A DNA stretch of 64,000 bases from Candidatus Firestoneibacteriota bacterium (GTDB lineage: Bacteria; Oederibacteriota; D2-FULL-39-29; CAIOVX01). The position numbers were made by a program, and so were the translations under genes. The notes under the pieces are model-generated. The model saw only the letters and a list, made by a program, of their open reading frames with translations, ran no database searches and was not told the DNA's origin. Of this stretch, positions 5,378 through 48,661 are shown piece after piece (positions within the stretch are counted from its first letter, which is position 1; each line of letters opens with the position of its first letter). The stretch is taken from positions 66,122-130,121 of the forward strand of contig CAIOVX010000011.1 in assembly GCA_903861835.1 (NCBI GenBank), given 5' to 3'.

Positions 5378-5378
5378 T

Positions 5379-5543
5379 ATGAATAAATCGGAATTTTGCT
5401 CAGAGTGCTGGTGTTGCAGGAAGGCTCGCGAGAAACCGGGAAGTTTCTGGCACGGCTTTGTAAGATTTATCTACCATACCCTCTGGTGTCCTTACTGCAA
5501 GGCTTACGAAAAGGAAACCGGCAAGAAACCCTACGGGAACTAA
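5379..5543 (+). CDS. Candidate unannotated sORF (54 aa), Cys-rich, with CSECWCC and WCPYC motifs
   Basis: Hand translation in the frame starting at the ATG at 5379, which overlaps the upstream stop by two nt. It gives MNKSEFCSECWCCRKAREKPGSFWHGFVRFIYHTLWCPYCKAYEKETGKKPYGN*. It is not in the ORF track because it is under 60 aa. There is a weak GAGG 12 nt upstream. Confidence 0.3.
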   Translation: MNKSEFCSECWCCRKAREKPGSFWHGFVRFIYHTLWCPYCKAYEKETGKKPYGN

Positions 5544-5589
5544 ACTTCAGCGGCAGGAAACAGGTTAATTGGTTTCGCCCTGATAAATC

Positions 5590-29994: not shown

Positions 29995-30026
29995 TAGGCG
30001 CGAAAGCAGTGTTAACGGGAGGTTAA

Positions 30027-35181: not shown

Positions 35182-36264
35182 ATGGACAAACTGCGATTTT
35201 ACAACTGGTTGCGCCTGATCGGAATATTCCTTTCCATTCTTTTCTTATTATATCTTGCCTATATTATGCGTGAAGTGCTTATGCCTTTTTTTGTCGCTGC
35301 TCTAATCGTGTACATATTAAACCCGGTTGCCGATTATTTTGAGGGCAGAGGGCTTAGAAGAAGCGCCGTAGTTACCGTGCTCTTTCTTTCGCTTATCGCT
35401 ATAATAACAGTAGGTGTCTGCCTCTCGTGGGGTTCTCTAATGGGCGAGTTTGATTATCTTAAAGTCAACCTGCCCAAATACCTGCTAAGCATTAAAGGTT
35501 CGCTCCTGCAAACTGCGGGCATGCTTGAGAAACGGTTGGACTTTTTGCCGAAGGGTTTCTTTTCCGTAATCATAGAGGATAAATTTAAACAGAACCCCGG
35601 CAGTGTCATCTCGGCTGCTCCCGGCCTTATAATTTCCGCCGTTGGCTTTATTATGTCTTCCATAATAGTTCTTTTTACCGTCTTCTTTTTACTTAAAGAC
35701 GGCAAGCTGCTGCGCAAGAGCCTTATACGCGCGGTACCAAATCGCTATTTTGAAATAACGCTTACAATCCTTGACGAGGTTAATACCGCTGTGGGAAATT
35801 ACATCCGCGGCCAGATTACGGATTGCTTAATCATCGGTGCGCTTTCTACAATAGGGCTGGCGCTGATCGGCTTTAAGTACGCCATCCTGGTCGGGGCTAT
35901 CGTCGGCCTCATGAACATGATTCCGTATCTTGGCCCGCTTACCGGAATGATAGCCGGTTTTATGATGGCCCTAATTGACGGGAATTCCCTGCCGATGGGT
36001 TTGAGAGTATTGCTTATCCTTTCTATAGTAAAATTAATAGACGATGCGCTGGTAAATCCGATGGTTGTCGGAAGTTCCGTTGAACTCCATCCGCTGGTAG
36101 TTATATTGTGTATTGCGGTCGGAGAAGCGTTACTCGGAGTTGTTGGTATGCTTATAGCAGTTCCTGTCTTCTGCGCGCTCAAGGCTACATTTGAAGTTCT
36201 GCATAAGGGCTTAATAACCTACGGTATCTGGGAAGGGCAGGGAGCGGAGACGGCAGGAAAATGA
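35182..36264 (+). CDS. AI-2E family transporter (PerM/YhhT-like)
   Basis: 360 aa, about 8 TM helices, with conserved AI-2E family regions (NYIRGQ..., MNMIPYLGP). Confidence 0.7.
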   Translation: MDKLRFYNWLRLIGIFLSILFLLYLAYIMREVLMPFFVAALIVYILNPVADYFEGRGLRRSAVVTVLFLSLIAIITVGVCLSWGSLMGEFDYLKVNLPKYLLSIKGSLLQTAGMLEKRLDFLPKGFFSVIIEDKFKQNPGSVISAAPGLIISAVGFIMSSIIVLFTVFFLLKDGKLLRKSLIRAVPNRYFEITLTILDEVNTAVGNYIRGQITDCLIIGALSTIGLALIGFKYAILVGAIVGLMNMIPYLGPLTGMIAGFMMALIDGNSLPMGLRVLLILSIVKLIDDALVNPMVVGSSVELHPLVVILCIAVGEALLGVVGMLIAVPVFCALKATFEVLHKGLITYGIWEGQGAETAGK

Positions 36265-36713
36265 CCCACGAAGATTTCATGCTTGAAGCTCTAAAAGAAG
36301 CCCGGAAAGGCAACGCGAAAGGTGAAGTCCCGGTAGGCGCTGTCATTGTGCTTCAAGGAAAAATAATTGCCAGGGCGCACAGCCTTGTCCGCAGTAAGAA
36401 AGACCCCACGGCTCACGCCGAGATACTCGCGATCAGGAAGGCAGCCGTTAAAAATAAATACGAAAGGCTTAACGGCGCTGATATGTATGTAACACTTGAA
36501 CCTTGCGCCATGTGCGCAGGGGCCATGGTGCTCTCGAGGATAGAACGGCTGTATTTCGGCGCAAGCGAACCGAATACAGGAGCTGCCGGAAGCGTTTTTA
36601 ATGTAGTCTCAGATCCGCATCACAATCACAGAATAAAAACCTTCAAGGCTGTGCTTGAGTCTGAAAGCAGCGAGCTGCTTAGAGGCTTCTTCAAAGATAA
36701 GAGGAAGAAATGA
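36261..36713 (+). CDS. tadA: tRNA-specific adenosine deaminase
   Basis: CDA-fold zinc motifs HAEILAIRKA and PCAMCAGAM. Length is 150 aa. Confidence 0.9.
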   Translation: MTHEDFMLEALKEARKGNAKGEVPVGAVIVLQGKIIARAHSLVRSKKDPTAHAEILAIRKAAVKNKYERLNGADMYVTLEPCAMCAGAMVLSRIERLYFGASEPNTGAAGSVFNVVSDPHHNHRIKTFKAVLESESSELLRGFFKDKRKK

Positions 36714-39070
36714 GAACCAAAACCGCGGCATACACCGGAGCGGGGTTGCTCATAGCGGCTCTTTCATTCTATCTGCTTACCGTCTGTCCGGTAGTCTATG
36801 TGGGTGATACCGGCGAACTGGTTTCGGCGGCCTATACTCTGGGTATACCGCATCCTCCGGGCTATCCTCTATTCTGTCTTTCCGGCAAAGCCCTGACCTG
36901 CCTGCCTGCCGGGAGTATTGCTTTCAGAGTGAACCTGCTTGCCGCTTTAATGGCAGCGCTCGCTGTCTTGATGTTCTTCCTGCTTTCAAAAAGAGTTTTT
37001 AAAGTTGAGGGAAACTTTAAGGTACTCCTTCTGTTGCTCCTTAGCTTTGTTGCAGCCTCTTCAAGAGTATTCTGGAACCAGTCCGGCATGGCAAAAGGCG
37101 CCCTCTATACTATGACTGCATTTTTGCTCCTATCCTCGGTCTTTGCTTTGGAAGCGTGGAGAAAAAACGGCAGGAATAAGCACTTTATTGTTGCCGCTTT
37201 TCTGGCAGGTCTTTCTGTTGTAAGCCATCAGACGGCGCTGGTCTTTCTTCCGGCCTTTGCAATTTACACGGTTTTTATCTCCATTGAAAAGAAAACTCAC
37301 TATACGGTTTTTATTTTGGGAGCGGCTGCGTTCTCGGCCGGCCTTTCCGTATTCTTTTACCTTATGCTAAGCGCGGCCGGCTACCCTGCCGTAAACTGCG
37401 GCAATCCTTCAACTATTCAGGGAATGCTGCAGCATGTTCTGCGCTCGCAATACGGCGGGCTTACGAAATACCCCAGATCCTTCGAACTCTTTGCTCAAGA
37501 ATTGAGAGCCTGTTTTATAATCTTTACGGCGCAGTTCCCTGTTTGGGTCCTATTTCTGCCGTTCTTAGGTATTCTAGTTTCATGGAGAAAGCAGCTGCCC
37601 CTGCGCTTACTTTCCGCGATTATTATAACAGCCCTCGTTTTCGGACTAATGCTCGGCACTGTCTATGATATTACGGCGGCGATGCTGGAGACTACTGCGG
37701 TTTTTATGCTCCCGGCTTATTTCTTCCTGTGGCTCTGGGCATATCCGGGAGCCGAAAAACTGCTTGGAGACAAGAAACCGGTCTATCTGAAGCTTCTTCT
37801 CTTGCTGCTTGCAATTTCTGCCGTGTTTTACAATGTCTGCGTAAACGGCTCCTATAATGATAAGAGCTCCAATCTCATGGCCGAGAGATATGCGGTTGAC
37901 ACGCTCAGGTCATGTCCCCGTGATTCGGTTATCTTTATGTCGGAAGACAGTCCTATGTATCAGTTGCTTTACGCGAAGACGGTGAACGGAGCTAGACCGG
38001 ATGTTAAGATAGTCGATGAGACAGCAACGGCTTTCAGGACGGTCCTTAGAGAAAGCGACAGAGGTGTTGTTTTTAAGGGTGAAGTATTAAGGCGGGCCTC
38101 GGAATATATGCAGAGCGCGCTTAAGAACGGAATACCTGTACTTTGCACCTCGGAAAGCTCCTTCCTTAACACAAGCAAGTCGGAGCGAACTCCTTCAGGG
38201 CTGCTGTATTTGATGAAAGGCCCTAATATGCGTTCCGGACCCGTAACGGATTTTTGGGAGAACTGCGAGATCCCGGAACCTTCGCCAAAAAGCGATGTCT
38301 TTAACAAAGACATGTACGCCCGGTATCATTTCATGAAGGCGGAAAGCCTCTTTGAGCGCGGAAATAAAAAAAGTTTTATTGAGGAAATGAAAAAAGCGGA
38401 AAGTCTCTCTCGGGATATGGACTGGGTCCGTTCAGAGATGGCTATCATTTACGGAAACAGAGGATTTAAGGCAGAGAGCCTCTCAGCCTATGAGTCAGCC
38501 GCGGCTCTTTTTAGGAATTCTGCCGAAAGAAGGAATAACCTCGCTAATGCCTACCTTGCCGCCGGGCGGATAGCCGAAGCCACAAAGGAATTTGAAGCCG
38601 CCTGCGCTCTGGATAAGAACCTCGCAGCGCCTCGTCATAATCTCGGCAATGCCTATCTCGCGGCCGGAAAGAGAGAAGAGGCGCGAGCTGTTTACGAAGA
38701 AGCCGCGCGGCTTGGTCAGAAGGAAAGCCTTGACGCTCTGAATAACCTTGCCGGCGATCTTGAGAAAAAAGGAATGAATGAGCAGGCCTTTCAGGAATAC
38801 ATTCATATACTTGCAATAGACAAAGGATATGTTTTTGCCTGGATTAACGCGGGAAATATATTTTACAGCCAGAACAAGCTTGATGACGCCATCCGCTTCT
38901 ATTCAAACGCGGCGGCAGTCAGGCCTGATTACCCTGAAGGCTATTTCAATCTTGGAGTTGCGTACTACAAGAAAGGAGACCTTGCCTCGGCTAAGCAGTA
39001 TTGGCAAAAGACATTGCAGATAGCTCCGGCGCACGCAGGAGCGCTTAATGCGGTTAAATTGGTAAAGTAG
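36710..39070 (+). CDS. DUF2723 (TMEM260-like) GT-C-fold membrane protein fused to C-terminal TPR repeats (paralog 1)
   Basis: N-terminal polytopic domain (about 11 TM helices) with the conserved YVGDTGE...HPPGYPLF loop motif. The C-terminal ~300 aa is made of TPR units. Its start overlaps the tadA stop. Confidence 0.6.
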   Translation: MRTKTAAYTGAGLLIAALSFYLLTVCPVVYVGDTGELVSAAYTLGIPHPPGYPLFCLSGKALTCLPAGSIAFRVNLLAALMAALAVLMFFLLSKRVFKVEGNFKVLLLLLLSFVAASSRVFWNQSGMAKGALYTMTAFLLLSSVFALEAWRKNGRNKHFIVAAFLAGLSVVSHQTALVFLPAFAIYTVFISIEKKTHYTVFILGAAAFSAGLSVFFYLMLSAAGYPAVNCGNPSTIQGMLQHVLRSQYGGLTKYPRSFELFAQELRACFIIFTAQFPVWVLFLPFLGILVSWRKQLPLRLLSAIIITALVFGLMLGTVYDITAAMLETTAVFMLPAYFFLWLWAYPGAEKLLGDKKPVYLKLLLLLLAISAVFYNVCVNGSYNDKSSNLMAERYAVDTLRSCPRDSVIFMSEDSPMYQLLYAKTVNGARPDVKIVDETATAFRTVLRESDRGVVFKGEVLRRASEYMQSALKNGIPVLCTSESSFLNTSKSERTPSGLLYLMKGPNMRSGPVTDFWENCEIPEPSPKSDVFNKDMYARYHFMKAESLFERGNKKSFIEEMKKAESLSRDMDWVRSEMAIIYGNRGFKAESLSAYESAAALFRNSAERRNNLANAYLAAGRIAEATKEFEAACALDKNLAAPRHNLGNAYLAAGKREEARAVYEEAARLGQKESLDALNNLAGDLEKKGMNEQAFQEYIHILAIDKGYVFAWINAGNIFYSQNKLDDAIRFYSNAAAVRPDYPEGYFNLGVAYYKKGDLASAKQYWQKTLQIAPAHAGALNAVKLVK

Positions 39071-39234
39071 ACGGTGGACGGATGGCAGTGGACAGCTAGA
39101 CGATGCACAATGGCTTCTAATAAACCTGCGTAAGAGTATGGAGTGCAACGTCAATGACGTTGCGCTATAGGGTGCATCGTTGCAAATGGCAGATGCTCGG
39201 ATGTTCGCAAAACATAATTGATGAGAACAACCAG

Positions 39235-41607
39235 CTACTTTAAAGAACGGAGGGCGGATCGTATATATTCATTCCCAGGATTCTCTTTTAGAAGCCCTTC
39301 AAGGAATTCAACGCCGGACTTTGTATCGTTGAGCTGCCTGATAACCATAAGTAGATTAGAGACAGCATCCTTGTAGTTTGGGTCAAGCCTGACCGCGGTT
39401 TTATAGGCAGAGGATGCGTCTTGAAACCGTCCGAGACTGTAAAGCGAAGCCCCGACCGCGTTCCAGCCGTAAGCAAAATTCGGGTTTAAGGCCACAGTTT
39501 TCGCGTAAAAGTCGAGAGCCCGCTTGAAATCACCTGTCCCGAAAAAAGTATTTCCCAGCGCGTAGTAAGCATCGGTGTATGTGGGATTTAATTCAACGCA
39601 TTTGGTGAAACAGTTCTCGGCTTCCTTAATATTCTTTTTTGCCAGGTGAGTCACTCCGAGATTGAAGTAGGACTTGAAGTATTTGCCGTCAAGCTCTATC
39701 GCTTTTTGGTATTCCGCGATGGATTCGTCAAGTTTGCCTGCTCCGTAGTACGCGGTCCCAAGATTATTGTACAGGTCGGCCGAGACAGCCCCGCCCTTAA
39801 TGACATTCTCGTAGAAGGGGATTGCTTTGTCGGGCGATATTCGCGCGACGGCCTGCCCGATAGAGTTCTGGATCATGGGACTGTCGTAGGAAGTGTCCAT
39901 TGCTTTCAGGTATTCCTGCATTGCGTCTTTTGAACGCCCCTGCGCGGCGAACTGGTCTCCGTTCGTCATATAATACTGCCCGATGAGCTCGCGGCAGAAA
40001 TAGTCCATATAGATGCTTTTGTCTCCCAGGCCCTTGAGGGAGTAATTGAAGTGTTTCCCGGAAGTTCCTCCCCCGACCCTTTTGAGAATGCCCTCATAGT
40101 GCAGCCTCAGGTCATCCATATTGTCGATATTGCTTCCTGGGTAGCAATAGATGACGCGCCCGGAGGTATTTACTATCTGCCGCTGTACCTCGTTGAGCCT
40201 TTTTTGGTAAATACCGGTAGCCATTCTGAGGAAATCCTCGCCGTAAATATTCTTGAAGACTCTTCCGTAATCATCAAAAATCTCAAGATCCTCTCTGGCC
40301 TTCTCTACCATATGAAGATACGCAGGGATAAATGTGGGGTTATCTCCCGAGAGAAAGAGTACTGCGCCTTTTTCCGGAGTCTTAAGGATATTAATTCCGA
40401 AATCATAGGCAATGGTGTTGCGGCTCCTGTCAATGAGACGGTAATTTTGGGCCAGCGGAAGCAGCATGCAGATGGCCGCAGCTGCGGTTATTAAAATGCC
40501 AATATTTCCGCCGCGCGCAAGGTCAAGAAAGAAGAGGATTCCGAAGAAAAGCCAGGCCGCGCACACCAGATAGGAGGGTATGAAGAATACTTCGTTAACA
40601 TACAGATCCATCGCGCTCCATTTAAAGTTGCTCATGAGGATTAGGCCGAGGCTGGTGAGAAGGAAAGTTATTAAAAGGATGAGGAAGATTCCTCTGCCCG
40701 CTTTTTTGTAACAATACCACGCGCCCGGGATAATAAGCCAGATTGTGAATGCGGAAAACTGAGTGGTCATGAATTTAAGATAAGTCCAGAGCTGCCCAAG
40801 GAATACAGAGAAGCTTCTTGCTTCAAACCCCAAGGCATATTGTTTCCTGAGAACATGATTGAGAAAGTTGTAAAAACTAGCGGGGTGCCCCCAATCAATA
40901 GGAGGGTTTGCGGCTGACCTGAGAGGCAAATACATGTAGATTAAGAGAGCAAAAGCAAGCGCGAGAGTGCCGCAGTAGAGACCCTGTGTTGTGATGCTAA
41001 ACGCTCTTTGTACACGGTCCTTTATTCCTGAGGTGACGAGGTATAGAGCGTAAAGGATTACGAAGGGAATAAGGGGCACAATTGTATTGTGATTTGCAAG
41101 TCCAAAGCCGGAAATCACCGCCAGTAATGTCAGGTTTTTTAGCCGGTATATTCCGGTATCTTTCTTTATTTTTAGAAGCATCAGTAACAGTAAGGCGGTG
41201 ATGAAGGCATTAAGCCCGTATAGCCCGCCTTTGGTCATTAGGGCCTGGGACCAGAACGTTCTTGAAAAAGCAAAAGCAAGGGATGCGAATGCCGCCGCCA
41301 AAGAAAGAGTAAGGCTGCCGGCGAAGGACGAGAGGAAAAGATACAGTGTTGACACAGCCAGTGCCGAGAAGACCGCAGCCGTAAGATTAACCCTTAAAGC
41401 AATTGTGCCTGCAGGAATAAATGACATTATTTTGCCTGACATGCAATAGAGCGGGTATCCCGGCGGATGAGCTATGCCCAGAGTGTAGGCCGCGGCTATC
41501 ATTTCTCCTGAATCTCCGACATAGACAGTAGGGCATACGGTTAGAAGGTAGGCTATGAACGCAGTCATAAAGACAAGAGACGGTATGGACTGCTTTAGTT
41601 TGGTCAT
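39235..41607 (-). CDS. DUF2723 (TMEM260-like) GT-C-fold membrane protein fused to TPR repeats (paralog 2)
   Basis: Same architecture and N-terminal motif (YVGDSGEMIAAAYTLGIAHPPGYPLY), with C-terminal TPR units. Confidence 0.6.
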   Translation of the reverse strand: MTKLKQSIPSLVFMTAFIAYLLTVCPTVYVGDSGEMIAAAYTLGIAHPPGYPLYCMSGKIMSFIPAGTIALRVNLTAAVFSALAVSTLYLFLSSFAGSLTLSLAAAFASLAFAFSRTFWSQALMTKGGLYGLNAFITALLLLMLLKIKKDTGIYRLKNLTLLAVISGFGLANHNTIVPLIPFVILYALYLVTSGIKDRVQRAFSITTQGLYCGTLALAFALLIYMYLPLRSAANPPIDWGHPASFYNFLNHVLRKQYALGFEARSFSVFLGQLWTYLKFMTTQFSAFTIWLIIPGAWYCYKKAGRGIFLILLITFLLTSLGLILMSNFKWSAMDLYVNEVFFIPSYLVCAAWLFFGILFFLDLARGGNIGILITAAAAICMLLPLAQNYRLIDRSRNTIAYDFGINILKTPEKGAVLFLSGDNPTFIPAYLHMVEKAREDLEIFDDYGRVFKNIYGEDFLRMATGIYQKRLNEVQRQIVNTSGRVIYCYPGSNIDNMDDLRLHYEGILKRVGGGTSGKHFNYSLKGLGDKSIYMDYFCRELIGQYYMTNGDQFAAQGRSKDAMQEYLKAMDTSYDSPMIQNSIGQAVARISPDKAIPFYENVIKGGAVSADLYNNLGTAYYGAGKLDESIAEYQKAIELDGKYFKSYFNLGVTHLAKKNIKEAENCFTKCVELNPTYTDAYYALGNTFFGTGDFKRALDFYAKTVALNPNFAYGWNAVGASLYSLGRFQDASSAYKTAVRLDPNYKDAVSNLLMVIRQLNDTKSGVEFLEGLLKENPGNEYIRSALRSLK

Positions 41608-41661
41608 AAGTTAAAATATCATATAAACTGCGTGTTTGAAAGAAAAAATAGAGGTTGGCGG

Positions 41662-41689
41662 TTGCATTAGCCAAAAAATTTGCTATAAT
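41662..41689 (+). promoter_or_regulatory. Candidate promoter for ssrA
   Basis: TTGCAT, a 16-nt spacer, then TATAAT, about 110 nt upstream of the mature tmRNA 5' end. Confidence 0.35.
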
Positions 41690-41798
41690 GCACCTGTAGT
41701 TTCTCCGTTCCTTGAGATTCCTGGAGCAATTTGTTTTTATTGTCTGTTTTTGAATTTAATTAGTAATTAGCAATTAGTAATCAGCAATTGTTTCAACT

Positions 41799-42143
41799 GG
41801 GGGTGTACGGATTCGACGGGGGTATTGAACTGCGTGACGCATGCAGAGGTGCTGTCAACCTCTTTAAACAGGCGGCAAAAAACAATCGCTAACAACAACT
41901 TAGCGCTGGCTGCTTAAGTAGCCACGTTCTGCGGGCCTTGCCTGCGTGGTTTGCAGAACGCCATATTAGCAGGCTAGGGCCGGCTTTGTACTCAGGGAAG
42001 AAGGCCCGAAACAAAACCTGAGTTTGCCGTTGCGGACCCTGTCTTTGGGGGACGCGGCGTCGAGACTAAAACAAAGAACAAGCATGTAGTGTCAGGCACG
42101 GATGTACTTTCGGACGCGGGTTCAATTCCCGCCACCTCCACCA
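41799..42143 (+). ncRNA. ssrA: tmRNA (SsrA), one-piece, tag ending ...ANNNLALAA*
   Basis: The 5' GGGGGTGTACGGATTCGACGGGG and the 3' tRNA-like end GGACGCGGGTTCAATTCCCGCCACCTCCACCA form an acceptor stem with a G3-U wobble, a T-arm GCGGG/TTCAATT/CCCGC and a terminal CCA. The internal ORF GCT AAC AAC AAC TTA GCG CTG GCT GCT TAA encodes ANNNLALAA. Confidence 0.85.
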
Positions 42144-42510
42144 TTAAATACGATTACTAATTGCTGATTGCTAATTGCTAATTAAAATCAAAAACTCCCG
42201 GGATTTGAAGGATTGTTACGGTAGTGTCAGGCACGGATGTACTTTCGGACCGGGTTCGACTATAGTACTTGCGAGCGATGAGCAGCGAAGCCGCGAGTCG
42301 GGTGCGAGCAAGTGTTCCCGCCACCTCCACCATTAAATACGATTACTAATTGCTGATTGCTAATTGCTAATTAAAATCAAAAACTCCCGGGATTTGAAGG
42401 ATTGTTACGGTAGTGTCAGGCACGGATGTACTTTCGGACCGGGTTCGACTATGGTACTTGCGAGCGACGAGCAGCGAAACCGCGAGTCGGTGCGAGCAAG
42501 TGTTCCGGTA
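42144..42510 (+). repeat. Two tandem ~189-nt units, each carrying a partial copy of the tmRNA 3' end with a ~57-nt insertion in the T-loop. The units are flanked by heptamer microrepeats.
   Basis: Unit 1 is 42144-42332 and unit 2 is 42333-~42510. They are about 97% identical to each other. Each contains GTAGTGTCAGGCACGGATGTACTTTCGGAC, identical to tmRNA nt 42086-42116, then CGGGTTC, a 57-nt insert, then TCCCGCCACCTCCACCA (unit 2 is truncated before this). TAATTGC-type 7-mer tandem repeats lie before the tmRNA and between units. AATAACT 7-mers follow unit 2. Confidence 0.8.
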
Positions 42511-42585
42511 TAAAGGCAATAACTAATAACTGATAACTAATAACTAATAGCTAATAAAGGTCAAAAACTTTGGGTTGGTGAGTTT

Positions 42586-44175
42586 TTATGGTTGCTTAAC
42601 GGGTGGTGTCGGAAAAATTACTTCCGACAATTGGTTTGAGTTGAAGAAGAATAGTCTGCCTTCCTTGAAGATTAAAGCGCCGTATTTCTGGCGTCTCTGC
42701 GACTGCAGGTCAAGTTTTGCTTTGGCTACTAGCCCGCCTTTGTTCAGCGCGAAAACAGCTGATTCAAGGGCGTCGTAAACATAGAAATTGCCCTCCGTGC
42801 CTGCTGCCACTGAAACCGGCCATTTGCTCTCGAAACTGAAAGACATCAGGGCTTTTCCGGAAGGATCCAGCATAATAAAACTTTTGTTGAGCGTATTTAT
42901 CACGCCTATATTTAAGACTGCATCTACTGCGAGCGGTCCGGGATTGAAATATTCTCCGGGTTTTATCTCCTGCAAGGTTTTTCCTGCCGTATCAAGTTTC
43001 CTTATCAGGTTTCTGCCGGTCTCCGATACATAGACAGCGTCGTCAGGACCGACTGCCAACTGCAGCGGCCAGTCAAATCCCTTAAAATCTGAAAGGAATT
43101 TACCGCCGGCATCGAAGCTCTCTATTCTTCCGTTAAAGGAGTCTGAGACATAGATATTCCCTTTTGCGTCAAGGCCGATTCCTTTAGCCCCGCAAAAAAG
43201 GCCGGGCCCTGTGCCGTGCCCGCCGAAAGCCGCTGAGATGCCATCTTTCGAAACTTTCATGTAAAAGTCTCCGCTGAAGTCGGTGCAATACACCTCACCG
43301 TCTTTTCCCGCGGCCGCAGCGAAAATCTTATATGCCCAAAGGTCTCTGTGTCCTTCTGTTTTAAACGTTATTTCTTTGCCTGCGGAATTTAGCTCAACGG
43401 TTCCTTTTTCATCGTCATTTACCGCTATATCGCCCTGCTTGTTGATGGCAATAAGAGTAGGACGGTTATAGTAGAACCTGTTTTTATAGTAATTCTTGAA
43501 TTTGCCGTCAGCAGCATAAATCTTTACCGACCTATCAAGAAAGTCGCAGATATAAATGCTTCCGTCGGGATGCAGAGCCGCGTCGGAAACGGAGAGAAGT
43601 TTTTCAGAGAACTTGACGAGGAAGGCGCCGTCTTTGCTGTATCGTTTTACACAAATATTGCCCGGGTCGGTAACAAAAATTGAGTTGTTGCTGCCCTTGA
43701 AGATATGAAACGGATTGAGAAAATCCGAGTCTCCGTATCCTCGTTTTCCGAACTTGAAGAGGAAGGAACCTTCCTTATCAAAAACTTTTATGCAATTGTT
43801 CCCTGTATCGGATACCACTATGCGGCCGGCTTCATCGCAAAAGACCCCGAGAGGTCTGAGCAGGGAGGAGTCCGAGTTGCCTTTACCGCCGAAAGAGCTT
43901 ACAAGCTGGCCTTTATCGTCCAATATCTTGATTGTCGAATTGCCGCTGTCGGCGACGAGAAGATTTCCGCCCGGAAGGATGTCTAGCCCGAACGGCCGGA
44001 ATAAGTCCTCGGCTACGGTATTAACTTTTCCGTCAGCCCGTATTTCTATTTGATCACGTGTCAGCAGGCATATTTCGTTTTTACCGGTCAGATACATGGA
44101 ATTATAATGCGCCAACGCAGGAAAAGAAATCAGCGCCAGTATGAAGGCAACAAACTTATTCATTTCTGACCGCAC
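42586..44175 (-). CDS. Secreted NHL-repeat beta-propeller protein
   Basis: Signal peptide (ALISFPALA). Multiple NHL-like ~40-aa repeats (..G.FC/D..G.IYV.D..N.RI..FD..G.F...FG..G). Confidence 0.65.
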   Translation of the reverse strand: MRSEMNKFVAFILALISFPALAHYNSMYLTGKNEICLLTRDQIEIRADGKVNTVAEDLFRPFGLDILPGGNLLVADSGNSTIKILDDKGQLVSSFGGKGNSDSSLLRPLGVFCDEAGRIVVSDTGNNCIKVFDKEGSFLFKFGKRGYGDSDFLNPFHIFKGSNNSIFVTDPGNICVKRYSKDGAFLVKFSEKLLSVSDAALHPDGSIYICDFLDRSVKIYAADGKFKNYYKNRFYYNRPTLIAINKQGDIAVNDDEKGTVELNSAGKEITFKTEGHRDLWAYKIFAAAAGKDGEVYCTDFSGDFYMKVSKDGISAAFGGHGTGPGLFCGAKGIGLDAKGNIYVSDSFNGRIESFDAGGKFLSDFKGFDWPLQLAVGPDDAVYVSETGRNLIRKLDTAGKTLQEIKPGEYFNPGPLAVDAVLNIGVINTLNKSFIMLDPSGKALMSFSFESKWPVSVAAGTEGNFYVYDALESAVFALNKGGLVAKAKLDLQSQRRQKYGALIFKEGRLFFFNSNQLSEVIFPTPPVKQP

Positions 44176-45520
44176 CCCAGTTTGATTTGAAATTTATGAG
44201 TTTGTTCTTGCCGTCCCTAACCGTTATCTCAATAATATCCTCAGGCTTAAGGTCGCTGCCGGAGAGCTTTGCTTTCAGAAACTGCCCTCCTGTCTCGGCC
44301 TGAGGCGGAAGCGGGTATTTGAGCCCGTTTATGAGCAGTTCAAGTTCTGTTCTAATGCTCGTTCTTCTGTCGGTAAGGAAGGCATTAATATTAATATTTA
44401 AAGCGGCGTCTTTGCGCACATTAAGAGCGCATTCTTTTGTGGCTTTGATGAATCCCCCGGTTGAGTTTAAAGGATACCAGTACTCGCTCCAGGAAACTGA
44501 TTTTCCGGGCTGCATTACGGTATAATCGTCCTGGGATTCGGTCAAGCCCGCGAAGAGTTCATAATAGATCTTCGGGTTAGAGGAATACATTTTGACAGGT
44601 GGATTGTTTCTCTGAAAACACCAGAGTTTAGAACCTTTTGCCGTTTCATGCGGGAAAACGCGTACAATACCTTCGTGCTTTCCCCGGTCGTAACTTCCGA
44701 GAAAATCTTCCTGCTGTTTTAATTGGAATAAACCCTGTTGATCATCCCAATTTGAGAAAAAGCTGTAGTCGACTCCGTCATAAATAGGCCAGCCAATAAC
44801 CTGGCGCATTGGCCAGCCGTACATATCCCCGTGCATAACCATCCTGTCTGCAGGGAAAGTAAATTCAACCTCATCGGTTTGTTCCATGCTGCAGCAGAGC
44901 CAGTAATAAAATCTTCTGGAATAGGGAGTGGGATTCTCAATTGTTATCTTGAATTCAACATAGGAAGCTTCCTCGCGGATAATGTTCTCGACTGTGAGTT
45001 TTAAATCAGTCTCGAGGTCCGTCATCCAGGTGATAAAAGAAACGCTGCCGTCCTGGTTTTTGCGGGTATAGTAATCCCACGGAATTGTGTCAGAAGGCGA
45101 GTGCGCGTAGGAAGGGAAGCCGTGTTTGAAGCCGCCGAGAACGGTAATGTAGCCTGCTCCCCGTGAATAGAGTGTGGCAGGTTTTGTGGAAGCGGTATCA
45201 TACAGAACCTCCTTCCCGGAGAGTTTGTCGAAGAGCTTGTAAAGCCTGCCGCCGTGGGAGGGAAGAAATGTCGCCTTTATGCGCTCGTTTTCTATTGCTA
45301 CAGTTTTAAAATCCTTTTTCGCTGAGATACCTACCGGGAAAGTTTCATCAGGCAGGTCAATCCTCGGATAAGGATAGCATTGCTCCCAGGGCCCTGAAGG
45401 ATATAAGAAGTTTTCAAATTTGTAGGTTGTGATAGAGGTCTTGTCTTCGGAAATGGTTACATCCGCGAAAACAGAGAGGTATAGTATAGATACAAGCGCC
45501 GCAAGCAAGAACCTTCTCAT
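44156..45520 (-). CDS. Secreted hypothetical protein, possibly with a galactose-mutarotase-like fold
   Basis: Signal peptide. The weak pattern KATFLPSHGGRLYKLFDKLSGKEVLY resembles aldose-epimerase-like beta-sandwich folds. Its start codon overlaps the stop of the upstream DUF2723-TPR gene, so they are co-operonic. Confidence 0.4.
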   Translation of the reverse strand: MRRFLLAALVSILYLSVFADVTISEDKTSITTYKFENFLYPSGPWEQCYPYPRIDLPDETFPVGISAKKDFKTVAIENERIKATFLPSHGGRLYKLFDKLSGKEVLYDTASTKPATLYSRGAGYITVLGGFKHGFPSYAHSPSDTIPWDYYTRKNQDGSVSFITWMTDLETDLKLTVENIIREEASYVEFKITIENPTPYSRRFYYWLCCSMEQTDEVEFTFPADRMVMHGDMYGWPMRQVIGWPIYDGVDYSFFSNWDDQQGLFQLKQQEDFLGSYDRGKHEGIVRVFPHETAKGSKLWCFQRNNPPVKMYSSNPKIYYELFAGLTESQDDYTVMQPGKSVSWSEYWYPLNSTGGFIKATKECALNVRKDAALNININAFLTDRRTSIRTELELLINGLKYPLPPQAETGGQFLKAKLSGSDLKPEDIIEITVRDGKNKLINFKSNWGAVRNE

Positions 45521-48093
45521 TAATTTCCTTTTCGTACCTTTTCTATATTAAGCCGGGCGTTAGTGTAACTTGGTGACACCTTTAGGGCTTTTTCCCAGGC
45601 GGCAATAGCCTTTACATTATCGCCAAGTATACCATAAGAGATGCCCAGATTGTTCCAGTCATCTGCGCTATTGGGGCGCAGCTTGGCTATATTAAGATAG
45701 CATTCCGGAGCTTTGTCGGCGTGCCCTGACTCTGTATAGGATATCGCGAGGCTTGTCCAGGCCTGAACCATTGCAGGATTTATGTTGAGTGCCTTAAGGT
45801 ATGCATTAATAGCGTTTTGATAATCCTTCTGTCCATAATAAACAAATCCCATTCCATAGTAGCTCTCTGCAATGTTAGGGTTCACGGTAAGAGACCTGTT
45901 GAAGGCGCTTAGAGCTTCTGAGGGCTTCTTCAGCTGCGCTAAGGCCACGCCGAGGTTTGTGAGCATCTCGGCGGAGCCGGGTTCAAGTTTTAGTCCGAGC
46001 TCGTAATTTATGACGGCGTTTTCAGGATCACTCTTATCAAGATATACATTGCCTATCATAAAATACATTTTAGAACTGTAGGGATTTACTGATAGAGCCT
46101 GCCGGTAGGCGTGGAGCGCTCCTTCAGGGACATTTGCTTGCCGGTATACGGCGCCCAGGTTGTAAAGATAGGCGTCCTTCCCTGAAATTGATATGGCTTT
46201 TGTGTAATACTCTATCGCTTTCTGAAAAAGGCCCTTCTTGTAGTTTATAATGCCAAGGTTGTTGTAGCCGTCGGCGAATCTGGGATTTATCTGAACCGCT
46301 TTTTGCGCGTATTTTTCGGCGTCCTCAAGCATGCCCTTGTTTATATAAGAGATGGCGATATCGTTCTGTATCATATCCATATCAAAGCCTGCTTCAAGCG
46401 CTTGTTTGTAAAGCCCTTCCGCTTCTTCATTGCCGCCTGTCTCAAAGGCGGCCTCGGCGAGGTTAAAATAAAAGAGCGCTATAACTTCCCGGGAAAGAAA
46501 ATCTTTGTAAAATGAAGGGTCTGAGTAAGACTCAATGTGATAGCGGTTCCGGTCGAAAATGCCGGGCTTGCGCCTGCCGTCTTTCATAATCTCGAAGATC
46601 ATACCGTAGGACCTGACTGTAAGGTTGGGCAGAGAGTGTACAGAGGTGCCGGATACGCAATAAATATGACCCTTGAAAGAGTTTATCGTATTCCATTCCA
46701 CTTCATTTATCCGCTTCGTATAGGTGCCAAAGTCGGTCTGGCCGCGAATTTCCTCGCCGTAAATATTTTCAAATACATTGCCGGTCTCATCATATACCGT
46801 GAGATCAGGTCTGAGTTTTTCTACCTTTTTCAAATAGCAGGTAATAAATGTGGAGTTGTCGCCGGCTACAAACAGGAGGGAATTTTTCTCCGGAGTCCTT
46901 AAGACATTCTTACCGTACACGAGAGCGCAATCATTTCTGCTTTTGTCGGCCCGGTAGTAGTTTGAAGCCAGCGGGAAAAGCGCGCAGACGGCTGAGACTA
47001 ACAGGAGGTATACGCCGGCTCGCGGGTACATTTCCTTCAGAAAGAAGAATCCTGCAACTCCAAAGATGCAAATCATAAGAAATGAGGGGATAAGGAAAGG
47101 ATCTACAATGTATAAGTCGTGGCTGTTAAGGAGATAATTGGAGAAGTATATAATTCCGGCGCTGGTCATCAGGAATATGGCGGTCGACAGAAAAAAAAGT
47201 TTCTTGTTCTTTTTGAAAAAGTAAAGCGCGCCTAAGGGCGCTAGCAGGGCTGTCAAACTGTTCTGTTTATAGAGCGCCTTAAAGTAACCGAAGGTTTGGT
47301 CTAGCATGTGCGCAAGAGTCCGGTCGTTGGGATCGGGAAGTTTGTACTGCTGTCTGGTAACGTGTCTCCAGAAGTTATCGAAAGTCGAAGGGTTGCCCCA
47401 GTTGATAGCCGGTCCGGCAGAGGCCCGTAAGGGCAGGTAAAGATAAATAAGCGCGGCCGTTAAGATTGAGAAAAACATAAAGCTCAAAGAGTATTTTATG
47501 GCCCGGCTTAAGCCGTGTTTATAAGAGTTGAGGAAAACAAAGAGTACAAAGACCGCTGTGAGCGGAACCATGGTGTTATGGTTCGCAAGACCTAAACCGA
47601 AGAACACGCCCGCCTGCAGAATATCCTTGTCGTTTTTAGAGAAACCAATTTTATAAATTATTAGGATGAGCAGCAGCGCGTTAAGTTCGTACAGGCCGCC
47701 CTTGGCCATAAGAGCCTGGTTCCAGAAAGTGAAGGAGAATACCGCCGAGAAAACCCCGGCAAGCGCCATTAGGTTGTCTGAAAAGGACCTGACTTTGACG
47801 CTCTTCTTCAAAAGAACAAAGAGGAAGAGCGAGGCTAATGCGGCGAGTGTTCCGGATAGTAAGTTAACTCTTGACGCGATATTTGAGACAGGAATATATG
47901 TGAACAGTTTACCAAGTATTGTAAAGAGTGGGTACCCCGGCGGATGCGGGATGCCGAGGTAATATGAGGCAGTTATCATTTCGCCTGAGTCGCCTACATA
48001 GATTGTGCAGCAGTAGGTGAGAAGGTAGATGATAAAAGGCAGCAAGAACGCAGCAAGCGTGAAATAGCTTGAGTATTTCGAGCGCGTTTCCAT
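45520..48093 (-). CDS. DUF2723 (TMEM260-like) GT-C-fold membrane protein fused to TPR repeats (paralog 3, 857 aa)
   Basis: N-terminal motif YVGDSGEMITASYYLGIPHPPGYPLF, about 11 TM helices, and a C-terminal array of about 9 TPR units. First gene of a three-gene minus-strand operon. Confidence 0.6.
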   Translation of the reverse strand: METRSKYSSYFTLAAFLLPFIIYLLTYCCTIYVGDSGEMITASYYLGIPHPPGYPLFTILGKLFTYIPVSNIASRVNLLSGTLAALASLFLFVLLKKSVKVRSFSDNLMALAGVFSAVFSFTFWNQALMAKGGLYELNALLLILIIYKIGFSKNDKDILQAGVFFGLGLANHNTMVPLTAVFVLFVFLNSYKHGLSRAIKYSLSFMFFSILTAALIYLYLPLRASAGPAINWGNPSTFDNFWRHVTRQQYKLPDPNDRTLAHMLDQTFGYFKALYKQNSLTALLAPLGALYFFKKNKKLFFLSTAIFLMTSAGIIYFSNYLLNSHDLYIVDPFLIPSFLMICIFGVAGFFFLKEMYPRAGVYLLLVSAVCALFPLASNYYRADKSRNDCALVYGKNVLRTPEKNSLLFVAGDNSTFITCYLKKVEKLRPDLTVYDETGNVFENIYGEEIRGQTDFGTYTKRINEVEWNTINSFKGHIYCVSGTSVHSLPNLTVRSYGMIFEIMKDGRRKPGIFDRNRYHIESYSDPSFYKDFLSREVIALFYFNLAEAAFETGGNEEAEGLYKQALEAGFDMDMIQNDIAISYINKGMLEDAEKYAQKAVQINPRFADGYNNLGIINYKKGLFQKAIEYYTKAISISGKDAYLYNLGAVYRQANVPEGALHAYRQALSVNPYSSKMYFMIGNVYLDKSDPENAVINYELGLKLEPGSAEMLTNLGVALAQLKKPSEALSAFNRSLTVNPNIAESYYGMGFVYYGQKDYQNAINAYLKALNINPAMVQAWTSLAISYTESGHADKAPECYLNIAKLRPNSADDWNNLGISYGILGDNVKAIAAWEKALKVSPSYTNARLNIEKVRKGN

Positions 48094-48156
48094 TTAAATA
48101 GAATACAAAATAAGTCTTTATAATACAAGGTAAAACAATGAGAATTCAAAATCATA

Positions 48157-48184
48157 TTGACAGAATCGTGAAAAGTAGTATAAT
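48157..48184 (+). promoter_or_regulatory. Near-consensus sigma70 promoter upstream of the Rrf2 regulator gene
   Basis: TTGACA, a 16-nt spacer, then TATAAT. It is followed by the inverted repeat CACTAC-N16-GTAGTG (48185-48212), a candidate operator. Confidence 0.5.
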
Positions 48185-48220
48185 CACTACTATGATGATA
48201 GACTTGGTAGTGAACGAAAT

Positions 48221-48661
48221 ATGAGAATATCCTTCAAGGGCGATTATGCGCTTAAGACTTTGCTTGATCTTGCGCTAAGGATAGATGCAGGACCGGTCAA
48301 GATATTTGAAATTGCAAAGCGGCAGGATATTCCGCTTAAGTATCTTGAACAGCTGCTTTTGCAATTAAAAGGAGCAGGCTTTGTAAACAGCAAGAGAGGC
48401 CAAGACGGGGGTTACTTTCTTGCGAGGCCTGCCGGGCGAATTACGCTTGGCGAAGTAATAAGGGTAATGGAAGGGTTTACTTCTCCGATTACGTGTGTAA
48501 GCCGGAGCTGTTTCGCCCGCTGCACGGATGAGAATAAGTGCCCTTTTCGAGCGACCTGGGAAAAGGTCAGGGATAGCGTAAACGCTATTGTCGATACTAC
48601 GACGATAGCAGATATAGCGCAAAAGGCCGTGAAAGGTGTTGAGGAAGACTATAACATCTGA
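48221..48661 (+). CDS. Rrf2-family transcriptional regulator
   Basis: N-terminal wHTH (GDYALKTLLDLAL...IPLKYLEQLLLQLKGAGFVNSKRGQDGGYFLARP) and a C-terminal Cys cluster (CVSRSCFARC...C) typical of IscR/NsrR-like Rrf2 proteins. Confidence 0.75.
   Translation: MRISFKGDYALKTLLDLALRIDAGPVKIFEIAKRQDIPLKYLEQLLLQLKGAGFVNSKRGQDGGYFLARPAGRITLGEVIRVMEGFTSPITCVSRSCFARCTDENKCPFRATWEKVRDSVNAIVDTTTIADIAQKAVKGVEEDYNI

What the first reader, a model, noticed from the sequence alone, without database searches (positions are those of the whole stretch)
36710..48093. Three paralogous DUF2723/TMEM260-like GT-C membrane proteins fused to TPR arrays, one co-operonic with secreted beta-propeller proteins
Within 11.4 kb there are three ~800-aa proteins of identical architecture: about 11 TM helices with a conserved YVGD(S/T)GE...HPPGYPL(F/Y) first-loop motif, then 8-9 TPR units. 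The N-terminal domain is the DUF2723 family to which human TMEM260 belongs. TMEM260 was recently characterised as a protein O-mannosyltransferase. The GT-C-plus-TPR layout also parallels eukaryotic TMTC O-mannosyltransferases. Paralog 3 (45520-48093) is translationally coupled (ATGA overlap) to a secreted protein of unknown fold (44156-45520) and then to a secreted NHL-repeat beta-propeller (42586-44175). That arrangement fits a glycosyltransferase followed by its substrates or partners. The window also encodes a BNR beta-propeller with an Ig-like C-terminal domain, hldD, an epimerase and a GT9 heptosyltransferase, so sugar-nucleotide supply is nearby. Bacterial members of this family are functionally uncharacterised. 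A tripled, TPR-guided periplasmic protein-glycosylation system is a plausible novel function. This is speculative.
Basis: partly seen in the sequence, partly recalled or inferred. Interest (0 to 1): 0.75.

Follow-up and report, generated by a model that had tools for sequence, protein, structure and literature searches.

The report
Three bacterial TMEM260-like glycosyltransferases with TPR arrays
A Firestonebacteria genome carries three old, conserved copies of a membrane sugar-transferase closely related to the human protein O-mannosyltransferase TMEM260, but the idea that one copy glycosylates the two secreted proteins encoded next to it is not backed by comparison with related genomes.

Summary
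Three genes (36710-39070 +, 39235-41607 -, 45520-48093 -) encode 786-857 aa proteins with the same layout: an 11-helix GT-C domain, a Rossmann-like domain and 7-9.5 TPRs. All three match Pfam PF11028 (E 1e-26 to 1e-32). P3 matches the solved human TMEM260 structure (9RQL, E 1e-28). The five residues essential in human TMEM260 (D52, H67, R264, Y267, catalytic base D441) are kept in all three paralogues and in at least 77 of 81 homologues. The model (pLDDT 94) matches Pmt4, ALG12, ArnT and PglB, and its TPR matches OGT.

The three genes are 1:1 orthologues across Firestonebacteria, from a phylum-specific expansion. Similar tandem arrays occur in other phyla. The family is large (about 15,000 clusters) and experimentally untouched in bacteria. 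Most likely these are periplasmic polyprenyl-phosphate-sugar protein O-glycosyltransferases. This is a new member of a known kind.

The parts
36710..39070 (+). P1: TMEM260-like (GT117) GT-C membrane domain, Rossmann-like domain and about 7 TPRs. It is the most divergent of the three paralogues. Its start overlaps the tadA stop (ATGA).
   Evidence: PF11028 E 6.7e-28, PMT_2 29.7 bits, many TPR families. Key residues D33, H48, R245, Y248, D413. Orthologues in L006 (38%), L019 (39%) and L025 (85%).
36800..36868 (+). P1 first periplasmic loop, the sugar-recognition motif VGDTGE...HPPGYP (residues 31-53). It holds the equivalents of human D52 and H67.
   Evidence: Roles of D52 and H67 from bioRxiv 10.64898/2026.03.17.711096.
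39235..41607 (-). P2: same architecture, convergent with P1.
   Evidence: PF11028 E 2.8e-32. Key residues D32, H47, R254, Y257, D422. Orthologues in L006 (42%) and L019 (46%), in the same convergent pairing with the P1 orthologue.
41452..41520 (-). P2 sugar-recognition motif VGDSGE...HPPGYP (residues 30-52).
45520..48093 (-). P3: same architecture with the longest TPR array (about 9.5 repeats). First gene of the P3-DUF5107-NHL transcription unit.
47929..47997 (-). P3 sugar-recognition motif VGDSGE...HPPGYP (residues 33-55). D35 corresponds to human D52 and H50 to human H67.
   Evidence: Residue-by-residue alignment to 9RQL. D is present in 80/81 and H in 81/81 homologues.
46858..46860 (-). P3 D412 in the Rossmann-like domain (AGDN), aligned with human D441, the proposed catalytic base.
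   Evidence: alignment. D is present in 80/81 homologues. D441A is inactive in human TMEM260.
44156..45520 (-). Secreted DUF5107 protein with a galactose-mutarotase-like beta-supersandwich. It overlaps the P3 stop by 1 nt (TAATG).
42586..44175 (-). Secreted NHL-repeat beta-propeller. The likely start is the ATG at 44163, giving 525 aa. It overlaps the DUF5107 stop.
   Evidence: NHL E 3.9e-25, DUF5128 6-bladed propeller. Sub-threshold ScyF similarity. It always follows DUF5107 in L012, L013 and L014, and does so in L011 across an ISL3 insertion.
36261..36713 (+). Context: tadA-type deaminase, translationally coupled to P1. The tadA-P1 adjacency is conserved in Firestonebacteria.
   Evidence: Pfam dCMP_cyt_deam_1 / MafB19-deam. 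ATGA junction. tadA lies directly upstream of the P1 orthologue in L019 and nearby in L006.
41799..42143 (+). Context: tmRNA gene between P2 and the NHL gene. It is a synteny anchor also found between the P3 and P2 orthologues in L006.
   Evidence: Rfam RF00023 200 bits, ARAGORN. L006 tmRNA at 6015-6360.

Best explanation
P1, P2 and P3 are bacterial members of the TMEM260 family (CAZy GT117, Pfam PF11028). Each is an inner-membrane GT-C glycosyltransferase with 11 transmembrane helices, followed by a periplasmic Rossmann-like 'palm' and a TPR 'finger' superhelix.

Proposed mechanism, by homology to the human enzyme:
1. The membrane domain binds a polyprenyl-phosphate-hexose, probably undecaprenyl- or another polyprenyl-phosphate-mannose because bacteria lack dolichol. 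The contacts are the loop Asp and His (P3 D35, H50) and the Arg/Tyr of the donor-loading loop (R247, Y250).
2. The TPR array grips an extended, unfolded stretch of an exported protein.
3. The Rossmann-like domain Asp (D412) deprotonates a Ser/Thr hydroxyl, which receives a single sugar with inversion.

The three genes are old, non-redundant paralogues that arose inside the Firestonebacteria lineage. They differ most in the acceptor-reading Rossmann-like and TPR parts, so they most likely serve different client proteins, as TMTC1-4 and TMEM260 do in animals.

The DUF5107 (mutarotase-like) and NHL genes downstream of P3 are a separate, mobile two-gene module. It landed between P3 and the tmRNA gene in this sub-lineage and is now co-transcribed. 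A functional link is possible but not indicated.

Status of each step:
- Shown: homology, fold, conservation of catalytic residues, orthology and context.
- Inferred: topology, donor identity, protein (rather than glycan) acceptor, and client diversification.
For: Family, fold and catalytic residues:
- Pfam PF11028 is well above threshold in all three.
- phmmer to the solved human TMEM260 (9RQL) gives E 1e-28 over 428 residues, extending into the Rossmann-like domain.
- The alignment places P3 D35, H50, R247, Y250 and D412 on human D52, H67, R264, Y267 and D441. Mutating any of these abolishes human activity (bioRxiv 10.64898/2026.03.17.711096).
- The same residues are present in P1 and P2. 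Among 81 homologues they occur in 80, 81, 77, 79 and 80 sequences respectively.
- The AF2 model has pLDDT 94 and pTM 0.87, with helices, then a beta/alpha domain at 389-530, then 19 TPR helices.
- A TPR Asn at P3 N612 is kept in 73/81 homologues. NLG-type motifs recur in the TPR regions, as in the Asn ladder needed for human activity.

Orthology and expansion:
- The three genes in L006 are 1:1 orthologues of P3, P2 and P1 (46, 42 and 38% identity), in the same order and orientation, with the tmRNA gene between.
- A P2/P1 orthologue pair with tadA upstream occurs in L019.
- All Firestonebacteria copies form one NJ clade apart from other phyla.
- Divergence is greatest in the Rossmann-like and TPR parts.

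Family size:
- 15,035 50%-identity clusters at E<=1e-3 and 8,868 at E<=1e-10.
- At least 569 confirmed loci across many phyla.
Against: - No biochemical data exist for any bacterial member.
- The donor sugar is unknown. Human R355, which contacts mannose, is not conserved (Pro in P3), although R355A keeps about 20% activity in human TMEM260.
- No polyprenyl-phosphate-sugar synthase (GT2) or flippase lies in the window, and none is enriched next to family members. GT2 appears in only 3 of the 101 flanking genes of the second batch and is not among the families listed for the first 143.
- No acceptor was identified. The human IPT-domain sequon core (GPxx[GA]GGxx[ST]) does not occur in any frame of the window.
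- Bacterial TPR domains also scaffold polysaccharide machineries, so a TPR array alone does not prove a protein acceptor.
- The periplasmic orientation is inferred from homology and helix count, not measured.
Confidence: 0.6

Rival explanations
1. One reading: P3 is a dedicated glycosyltransferase whose substrates or partners are the co-transcribed secreted DUF5107 and NHL proteins. The operon would be a self-contained glycosylation cassette.
For: - The gene overlaps imply co-transcription and probable translational coupling: P3/DUF5107 by 1 nt and DUF5107/NHL by 8 nt.
- Both downstream proteins have N-terminal hydrophobic signal-like segments, so they would meet a periplasmic enzyme.
- The same order, TPR protein then DUF5107 then NHL, is kept in L014, a relative at 56-58% identity.
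- DUF5107 has a sugar-binding type fold and is fused to TPRs in other organisms (5CD6, P0127).
Against: - P3 orthologues at 46-47% identity (L006, L008) have no DUF5107 or NHL neighbour.
- The DUF5107-NHL pair sits between dciA and gyrB in L012/L013, and beside GDSL-lipase and ilv genes with an ISL3 insertion in L009-L011. No TMEM260-like gene is adjacent in either case.
- 0 of 79 loci from other genomes have DUF5107 within 10 kb.
- No beta-propeller family is enriched among 244 flanking genes.
- The mutarotase-like fold suggests an enzyme or lectin rather than a passive client.
Confidence: 0.12
2. The three proteins are GT-C enzymes that decorate a non-protein envelope acceptor (lipid A/LPS core, a capsular or other periplasmic glycan, or peptidoglycan), as ArnT, the Aft enzymes and the GT-C parts of 'three-component' glycan-modifying systems do. 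The TPR array would serve as a scaffold to envelope machinery.
For: - TPR domains occur in bacterial polysaccharide export proteins, with sub-threshold NCBIfam similarity to PgaA, BcsC and LapB.
- LPS-core genes (GT9, heptose epimerase-like) are in the wider window.
- Other GT-C (PMT_2) and GT1/GT2 genes are occasionally adjacent in other phyla.
- Three-component systems are described in PMC11127046.
Against: - The closest relative by sequence, by a wide margin, is a protein O-mannosyltransferase. 9RQL was the only PDB hit to the N-terminal 543 residues at E<=1.
- The acceptor-side catalytic Asp of the Rossmann-like domain, which contacts the peptide Thr in the human ternary complex, is kept in 80/81 homologues.
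- The TPR is OGT-like with Asn-ladder positions.
- No GT2 or GtrA partners are clustered with these genes.
Confidence: 0.22
3. One or more of the paralogues are catalytically dead and act as TPR-based chaperones or adaptors, or as obligatory partners of an active paralogue, as in Pmt1-Pmt2 heterodimers.
For: - P1 is clearly more divergent: 32% identity in the TM part and 22% in the Rossmann-like domain.
- P1 has SEDS instead of (S/A)GDN around the catalytic Asp.
- Fungal PMTs work as obligate dimers (PMC12705809, abstract).
Against: - All five essential residues are intact in all three paralogues.
- Each paralogue has been kept as a 1:1 orthologue over deep divergence.
- Human TMEM260 was solved as a single chain.
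Confidence: 0.05

Closest known systems
Human TMEM260 (CAZy GT117; PDB 9RQL/9RQM/9RQN), an ER protein O-mannosyltransferase for IPT domains of plexins, cMET and RON
   Same: - Direct sequence homology: E 1e-28 over about 430 residues.
- The same three-part layout: 11-helix GT-C, Rossmann-like domain, TPR.
- All five residues whose mutation abolishes activity are conserved (D52, H67, R264, Y267, D441).
- The catalytic side faces the topological equivalent of the ER lumen (periplasm). This is inferred.
   Different: - TPR array of 7-9.5 repeats instead of a five-helix TPR.
- R355 is not conserved.
- The donor must be a bacterial polyprenyl phosphate sugar, not dolichyl-P-Man (established knowledge; not tested).
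- No IPT sequon is found in the window.
- Three or more paralogues per genome instead of one.
- Activity and acceptors are unknown.
Metazoan TMTC1-4 (GT105), GT-C plus long TPR O-mannosyltransferases for cadherins
   Same: Overall logic: a GT-C membrane domain followed by a long luminal TPR array, present as several non-redundant paralogues (PMC7801869, PMC11292533).
   Different: - No sequence-level membership. No TMTC-specific Pfam family was hit.
- TMTCs lack the Rossmann-like domain with a catalytic Asp that defines the TMEM260 mechanism (describes this division of labour as distinguishing TMEM260 from other GT-Cs).
PMT/POMT family (GT39), including actinobacterial Pmt
   Same: - Loop Asp in the first extracytoplasmic loop.
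- Polyprenyl-phosphate-mannose donor. Actinobacterial Pmt is the only established bacterial protein O-mannosyltransferase (PMC8698208, PMC12331936).
   Different: - Only 7-10% identity in the structural alignment.
- The Pfam PMT_2 match is marginal for P1 (29.7 bits against a 26.1 cutoff) and absent for P2 and P3.
- PMTs carry MIR domains, not Rossmann-like plus TPR.
OGT / SPINDLY TPR domains
   Different: The OGT catalytic domain is a soluble GT-B that uses a nucleotide sugar. It is unrelated to the GT-C part here.
BDI_1685 of Parabacteroides distasonis (PDB 5CD6), a DUF5107-TPR protein, and galactose mutarotases
   Different: - It has no TPR of its own.
- It belongs to a small Firestonebacteria-restricted subfamily; only 6-7 clusters were found by the word-indexed search.
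- 5CD6 itself has no assigned function.

Membership tests
TMEM260-like / CAZy GT117 (Pfam PF11028) | Pfam PF11028 match above the gathering score | tested here: met
   98.1, 112.4 and 92.4 bits for P1, P2 and P3 against a cutoff of 24.2.
TMEM260-like / CAZy GT117 (Pfam PF11028) | Sequence homology to the solved TMEM260 over the GT-C module, the variable module and the start of the Rossmann-like domain | tested here: met
   9RQL E 7.5e-29, P3 residues 14-441 aligned to TMEM260 31-470. It was the only PDB hit to the N-terminal 543 aa.
TMEM260-like / CAZy GT117 (Pfam PF11028) | GT-C fold with 11 transmembrane helices | tested here: met
   [not shown]
TMEM260-like / CAZy GT117 (Pfam PF11028) | Sugar-recognition motif with Asp (D52) and His (H67) in the first extracytoplasmic loop | tested here: met
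   VGD(S/T)GE and HPPGYP are present in all three, with the same 15-residue spacing as in human TMEM260. D is kept in 80/81 and H in 81/81 homologues.
TMEM260-like / CAZy GT117 (Pfam PF11028) | Donor-loading loop Arg (R264) and Tyr (R267 equivalent, Y267) | tested here: met
   HV(L/T)RxQY is present in all three. R is kept in 77/81 and Y in 79/81 homologues.
TMEM260-like / CAZy GT117 (Pfam PF11028) | Rossmann-like domain carrying the catalytic base (D441) | tested here: met
   The Asp aligns in the HMMER alignment: P1 D413, P2 D422, P3 D412. It is kept in 80/81 homologues. The model shows a beta/alpha domain at 389-530.
TMEM260-like / CAZy GT117 (Pfam PF11028) | TMH10 Arg (R355) contacting mannose | tested here: not met
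   It aligns to Pro in P3, and the position is not conserved among the three paralogues. In human TMEM260, R355A retains about 20% activity, so it is not strictly essential. The change may signal a different sugar.
TMEM260-like / CAZy GT117 (Pfam PF11028) | C-terminal TPR acceptor-binding domain with an Asn ladder | tested here: met
   [not shown]
TMEM260-like / CAZy GT117 (Pfam PF11028) | Transfer of mannose from polyprenyl-P-Man to Ser/Thr of IPT-type acceptors | not testable with these tools
   There is no biochemical assay available here. The human sequon core is absent from all frames of the 64-kb window, which is uninformative about the rest of the genome.
TMTC (GT105) | TMTC-specific membrane-domain signature | tested here: not met
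   The Pfam scan at E<=0.01 lists no TMTC-specific family for P1-P3. The resemblance is architectural only.
PMT_2 clan / GT39-GT83 | Pfam PF13231 above the gathering score | tested here: inconclusive
   P1 scores 29.7 bits against a cutoff of 26.1. P2 and P3 are not listed. This fits clan-level relatedness only.
Three-component extracytoplasmic glycosylation systems (GT2 polyprenyl-P-sugar synthase, flippase and GT-C) | Genes for the GT2 synthase and a GtrA-like flippase clustered with the GT-C | tested here: not met
   There is none in the 64-kb window. Among 244 genes flanking 78 family loci, GT2 appears 3 times in the second batch and is not listed for the first, and GtrA is not among the listed families.
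Glycosyltransferase-substrate operon (P3 with DUF5107/NHL) | Conserved co-occurrence of the GT gene with the putative client genes across genomes | tested here: not met
   Linked only in the window species and L014. Unlinked in L006, L008, L009-L013. 0/79 wider loci carry DUF5107.

The most novel reading that the evidence does not exclude
Firestonebacteria, and by extension the many mostly uncultivated phyla that carry this family (about 15,000 clusters), run a sequon-directed periplasmic protein O-glycosylation pathway that is the prokaryotic counterpart, and possibly the ancestor, of the animal TMEM260 pathway. In this reading, lineage-specific arrays of paralogues each read a different client class through their TPR and Rossmann-like grooves. 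In this sub-lineage P3 would have recruited a mutarotase-like protein and an NHL propeller as dedicated clients or glycan-handling partners.
Probability: 0.15. Interest if true: 0.7.

Novelty: new member of a known kind. Interest (0 to 1): 0.4.

Why it matters
Outside Actinobacteria, protein O-mannosylation by GT-C enzymes is essentially unexplored in bacteria. These genes keep every residue that the 2026 cryo-EM and mutagenesis work showed to be essential in human TMEM260. The mechanistic hypothesis is therefore unusually concrete: polyprenyl-phosphate-sugar donor, extended peptide acceptor, and Asp base in the Rossmann-like domain. The family is large and spread over many phyla, with repeated local expansions. 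If it is active on proteins, it would be a widespread and unrecognised periplasmic glycosylation route. It would also be a tractable bacterial model for an enzyme mutated in a human congenital heart and kidney syndrome. The locus itself does not hand over a substrate, which limits its immediate value.

Tried and rejected
- The afdb50 library was not available.
- I searched all six frames of the window for the human TMEM260 acceptor sequon and its core GPxx[GA]GGxx[ST]. There were no matches.
- I looked for a donor-synthesis partner (GT2, GtrA) in the window and next to 78 family loci. Nothing was enriched. The most frequent neighbours were other TPR proteins, response regulators, DUF4159 and other PMT_2-type GT-Cs.
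- I considered that DUF5107-NHL is a genomic island integrated at the tmRNA gene, because partial copies of the tmRNA 3' end lie nearby. The copies are a local 189-bp tandem repeat directly after the tmRNA (42126-42506) and do not flank the two genes. The island model is therefore not supported as stated.
- Word-indexed homologue searches for the DUF5107 protein, with a single sequence and with a profile, found only 6-7 clusters. This left a shallow alignment and a medium-confidence model (pLDDT 68, pTM 0.71). The fold assignment rests on that model plus the direct sequence hit to 5CD6.
- NCBIfam has no model for the TMEM260-like domain or for this DUF5107 protein.
- Literature searches for DUF2723, GT117, TMEM260-like, bacterial GT-C plus TPR, DUF5107 and Firestonebacteria found no functional study of bacterial members.
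- The first attempt at a tree timed out. The NJ tree that ran has no bootstrap support values.

Full report
**What is there**

The window comes from a Candidatus Firestonebacteria genome. Contigs carrying the identical P3 protein occur in freshwater metagenomes and in MAG GCA_903855845.1. The nearest named homologues are all Firestonebacteria.

The three large ORFs are at the stated coordinates:
- P1, 36710-39070 (+), 786 aa
- P2, 39235-41607 (-), 790 aa
- P3, 45520-48093 (-), 857 aa

Each matches Pfam PF11028 'Protein O-mannosyl-transferase TMEM260-like' (E 7e-28, 3e-32, 4e-26) at the N-terminus and numerous TPR families at the C-terminus. They are 27-35% identical overall.

P3 is followed by a DUF5107 protein (44156-45520; PF17128, E 1e-34) and an NHL beta-propeller (42586-44175). 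The P3/DUF5107 junction is TAATG, a 1-nt overlap, not ATGA. The NHL ATG overlaps the DUF5107 stop by 8 nt. The true ATGA overlap is between a tadA-type deaminase gene (36261-36713) and P1. A tmRNA gene (41799-42143) lies between P2 and the NHL gene.

**Are they TMEM260-type glycosyltransferases?**

Yes, on every test I could run.
- Against PDB sequences, the N-terminal 543 residues of P3 hit only human TMEM260 (9RQL/9RQM/9RQN). The match is E 7.5e-29, P3 residues 14-441 against TMEM260 31-470.
- The 2026 cryo-EM preprint (bioRxiv 10.64898/2026.03.17.711096) describes TMEM260 as an 11-helix GT-C 'wrist', a Rossmann-like 'palm' and a TPR 'finger' domain.
- In that work D52 and H67 (sugar-recognition motif), R264 and Y267 (donor-loading loop) and D441 (Rossmann-like domain, proposed catalytic base) are each required for activity. 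R355A retains about 20%.
- Counting along the HMMER alignment, these map to P3 D35, H50, R247, Y250 and D412. R355 maps to a Pro.
- The same five residues are present in P1 (D33, H48, R245, Y248, D413) and P2 (D32, H47, R254, Y257, D422).
- In an 81-sequence alignment they occur in 80, 81, 77, 79 and 80 sequences respectively.
- An AlphaFold2 model of P3 is very confident (pLDDT 94, pTM 0.87). It shows the helical membrane part, a beta/alpha domain at 389-530 and 19 TPR helices.
The homology extends to the acceptor-side catalytic Asp that is specific to TMEM260.
- TMEM260 is CAZy family GT117 (PMC10214176, PMC11292533).

**How the three copies relate**

In another Firestonebacteria genome (L006, the RIFOXYA2_FULL_40 lineage) three TMEM260-TPR genes are again clustered. 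They are 1:1 best matches of P3 (46%), P2 (42%) and P1 (38%), in the same order and orientation. A tmRNA gene again lies after the P3 orthologue.

A third MAG (JBDRBU) shows the following:
- the convergent P2/P1 orthologue pair with tadA directly upstream of the P1 orthologue (L019)
- its P3 orthologue on another contig (L008)
- a fourth paralogue (L060)

In a neighbour-joining tree of 107 N-terminal domains, all 17 Firestonebacteria sequences form one clade that excludes other phyla (no bootstrap). The copies are therefore an old expansion within the phylum and have been kept as distinct genes.

Divergence is greatest in the Rossmann-like and TPR parts. P2 vs P3 is 42/41/29% and P1 vs the others about 32/22/24% for TM / Rossmann-like / TPR. 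Different acceptor specificities would produce this pattern.

**Is a tripled array unusual?**

No.
- The genome scan found more than 569 confirmed loci in many phyla, including Hydrogenedentota, Elusimicrobiota, Armatimonadota, Acidobacteriota, Spirochaetia, Planctomycetota, Bacteroidota, Proteobacteria and CPR groups.
- Of the 79 loci retrieved, 15 carry two or more copies within 10 kb and six carry three. These include several Elusimicrobia/Endomicrobia loci with three co-directional genes. One Armatimonadota locus (L026) carries eight in tandem.
- An exhaustive HMMER search gives 15,035 50%-identity clusters at E<=1e-3 and 8,868 at E<=1e-10.

**The substrate-operon idea**

This is where the finding fails its own test.
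- P3 orthologues at 46-47% identity are followed by the tmRNA gene and efp (L006) or by a sigma-70 gene (L008), not by DUF5107 or NHL.
- DUF5107 and NHL travel together without any TMEM260-like neighbour. In L012/L013 they sit between dnaN-recF-dciA and gyrB.
- In L009-L011 DUF5107 sits next to a GDSL lipase and ilv genes. In L011 an ISL3 transposase is inserted between DUF5107 and the NHL gene.
- Only L014 (DUF5107 58%, upstream TPR protein 56% to P3) repeats the window's arrangement.
- With local HMMs, 0 of 79 wider loci contain DUF5107 and 4 of 79 contain any NHL-like ORF.
- A Pfam scan of 244 genes flanking 78 loci shows no enriched family. The commonest are TPR proteins (about 9), response regulators (8), DUF4159 (5), other PMT_2-type GT-Cs (at least 5) and GT2 (3).

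The simplest reading is that a DUF5107-NHL module was inserted between P3 and the tmRNA gene in this sub-lineage and came under P3's promoter.

**The downstream proteins**

The NHL protein has only sub-threshold similarity to the scytonemin protein ScyF. Both proteins have N-terminal hydrophobic segments consistent with export.

**The rest of the window**

The window is otherwise housekeeping: glyS, aldolase, ndk, PFK, nuo subunits, gmk, priA, a Zn ABC transporter, a MacB-type efflux system and pyrimidine genes.

The two NAD-dependent epimerases (29038-31067) and the GT9 heptosyltransferase (57765-58898) are typical LPS-core genes, separated from the paralogues by unrelated genes. No GT2 polyprenyl-phosphate-sugar synthase is present. 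The BNR/sortilin protein's C-terminal domain is a T9SS sorting signal.

**Most likely mechanism**

By homology, each paralogue would work as follows:
1. It sits in the inner membrane and binds a polyprenyl-phosphate-hexose in the membrane domain (Asp/His loop, Arg/Tyr loop).
2. It holds an extended segment of an exported polypeptide along the TPR and Rossmann-like groove.
3. It uses the Rossmann-like domain Asp as the base for attack of a Ser/Thr hydroxyl on the anomeric carbon.

Shown here are the homology, fold, residue conservation and gene history. Inferred are the periplasmic orientation, the donor identity (loss of R355 leaves the sugar open), the protein nature of the acceptor and paralogue-specific clients. 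I put about 0.6 on this. About 0.2 goes to a non-protein envelope acceptor, about 0.1 to the dedicated P3/DUF5107/NHL cassette, and a few percent to non-catalytic roles.

**Novelty**

The existence of 'distant homologs in bacteria' was noted when TMEM260 was identified (PMC10214176). Pfam already names the family after TMEM260, and NCBI labels these proteins DUF2723 or TPR proteins. I found no experimental work on any bacterial member.

The locus is therefore a well-preserved new member of a known enzyme kind, in a large uncharacterised bacterial branch. It has a longer TPR array than the human enzyme. The specific novel claim, a GT plus substrates cassette, is not supported.

Noticed in passing
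window 42126-42506 (after tmRNA 41799-42143): A 189-bp tandem repeat (2.0 copies, 97% identical) begins inside the 3' end of the tmRNA gene. Each unit re-creates the tmRNA 3' end (…gtagtgtcaggcacggatgtactttcgga…cccgccacctccacca) with about 60 nt inserted in the T-arm region. Copy number differs between metagenome contigs of the same species: the NHL-to-P2 spacer is 790 bp in L001/L003 and 979 bp in L002 and the window. These could be integration scars or a slippage product.
   Followed up: partly
L026:4521-19609 (Armatimonadota MAG JBDRKI010000046.1): Eight TMEM260-like ORFs lie in one co-directional tandem array, seven full-length with E around 1e-156 to 1e-168 and one short. This is the largest expansion seen. 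Three-gene co-directional arrays recur in Elusimicrobia/Endomicrobia (L023, L036, L045, L051, L073) and FCPU426 (L057).
   Followed up: partly
window 22628-25174 (+): An 848-aa sortilin/BNR-repeat protein ends in a T9SS type A sorting domain (TIGR04183, 26.9 bits against a cutoff of 23; PorZ-like C-terminus). This implies type IX secretion cargo in a Firestonebacteria genome.
   Followed up: no
L009:9343-10569 and L011:2771-3997: An ISL3-family transposase gene overlaps the end of the DUF5107 gene. In L011 it separates DUF5107 from the NHL gene (L011:4177-5441).
   Followed up: no
window 36261-36713 / 36710; L019:7006-7467 / 4506-6998: The essential tRNA-adenosine deaminase gene tadA is translationally coupled (ATGA) to P1, and the tadA-P1 adjacency is conserved in another Firestonebacteria MAG. 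It is an odd operon partner for a membrane glycosyltransferase.
   Followed up: partly
window 48120-48196: A perfect sigma-70 consensus (TTGACA-16-TATAAT, 48157-48184, + strand) precedes the Rrf2-family regulator gene (48221-48661). That gene is divergent from P3. A weaker promoter-like site (48149-48120, - strand) faces P3. The Rrf2 gene is adjacent to P3 in all same-species contigs but not in L006 or L008.
   Followed up: no
window 31107-33965 (+): A 952-aa protein has only a weak GH94-superfamily catalytic-domain match (E 8e-11) and no NCBIfam hit. It lies just downstream of the two epimerase genes.
   Followed up: no
window 44156-45520 (-), alignment A5: The mutarotase-like DUF5107 protein keeps a small set of invariant polar and aromatic residues across distant homologues (H140, E195, N196, W207, N257, E321, W344, E346). 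This suggests a real sugar-binding or catalytic site.
   Followed up: no
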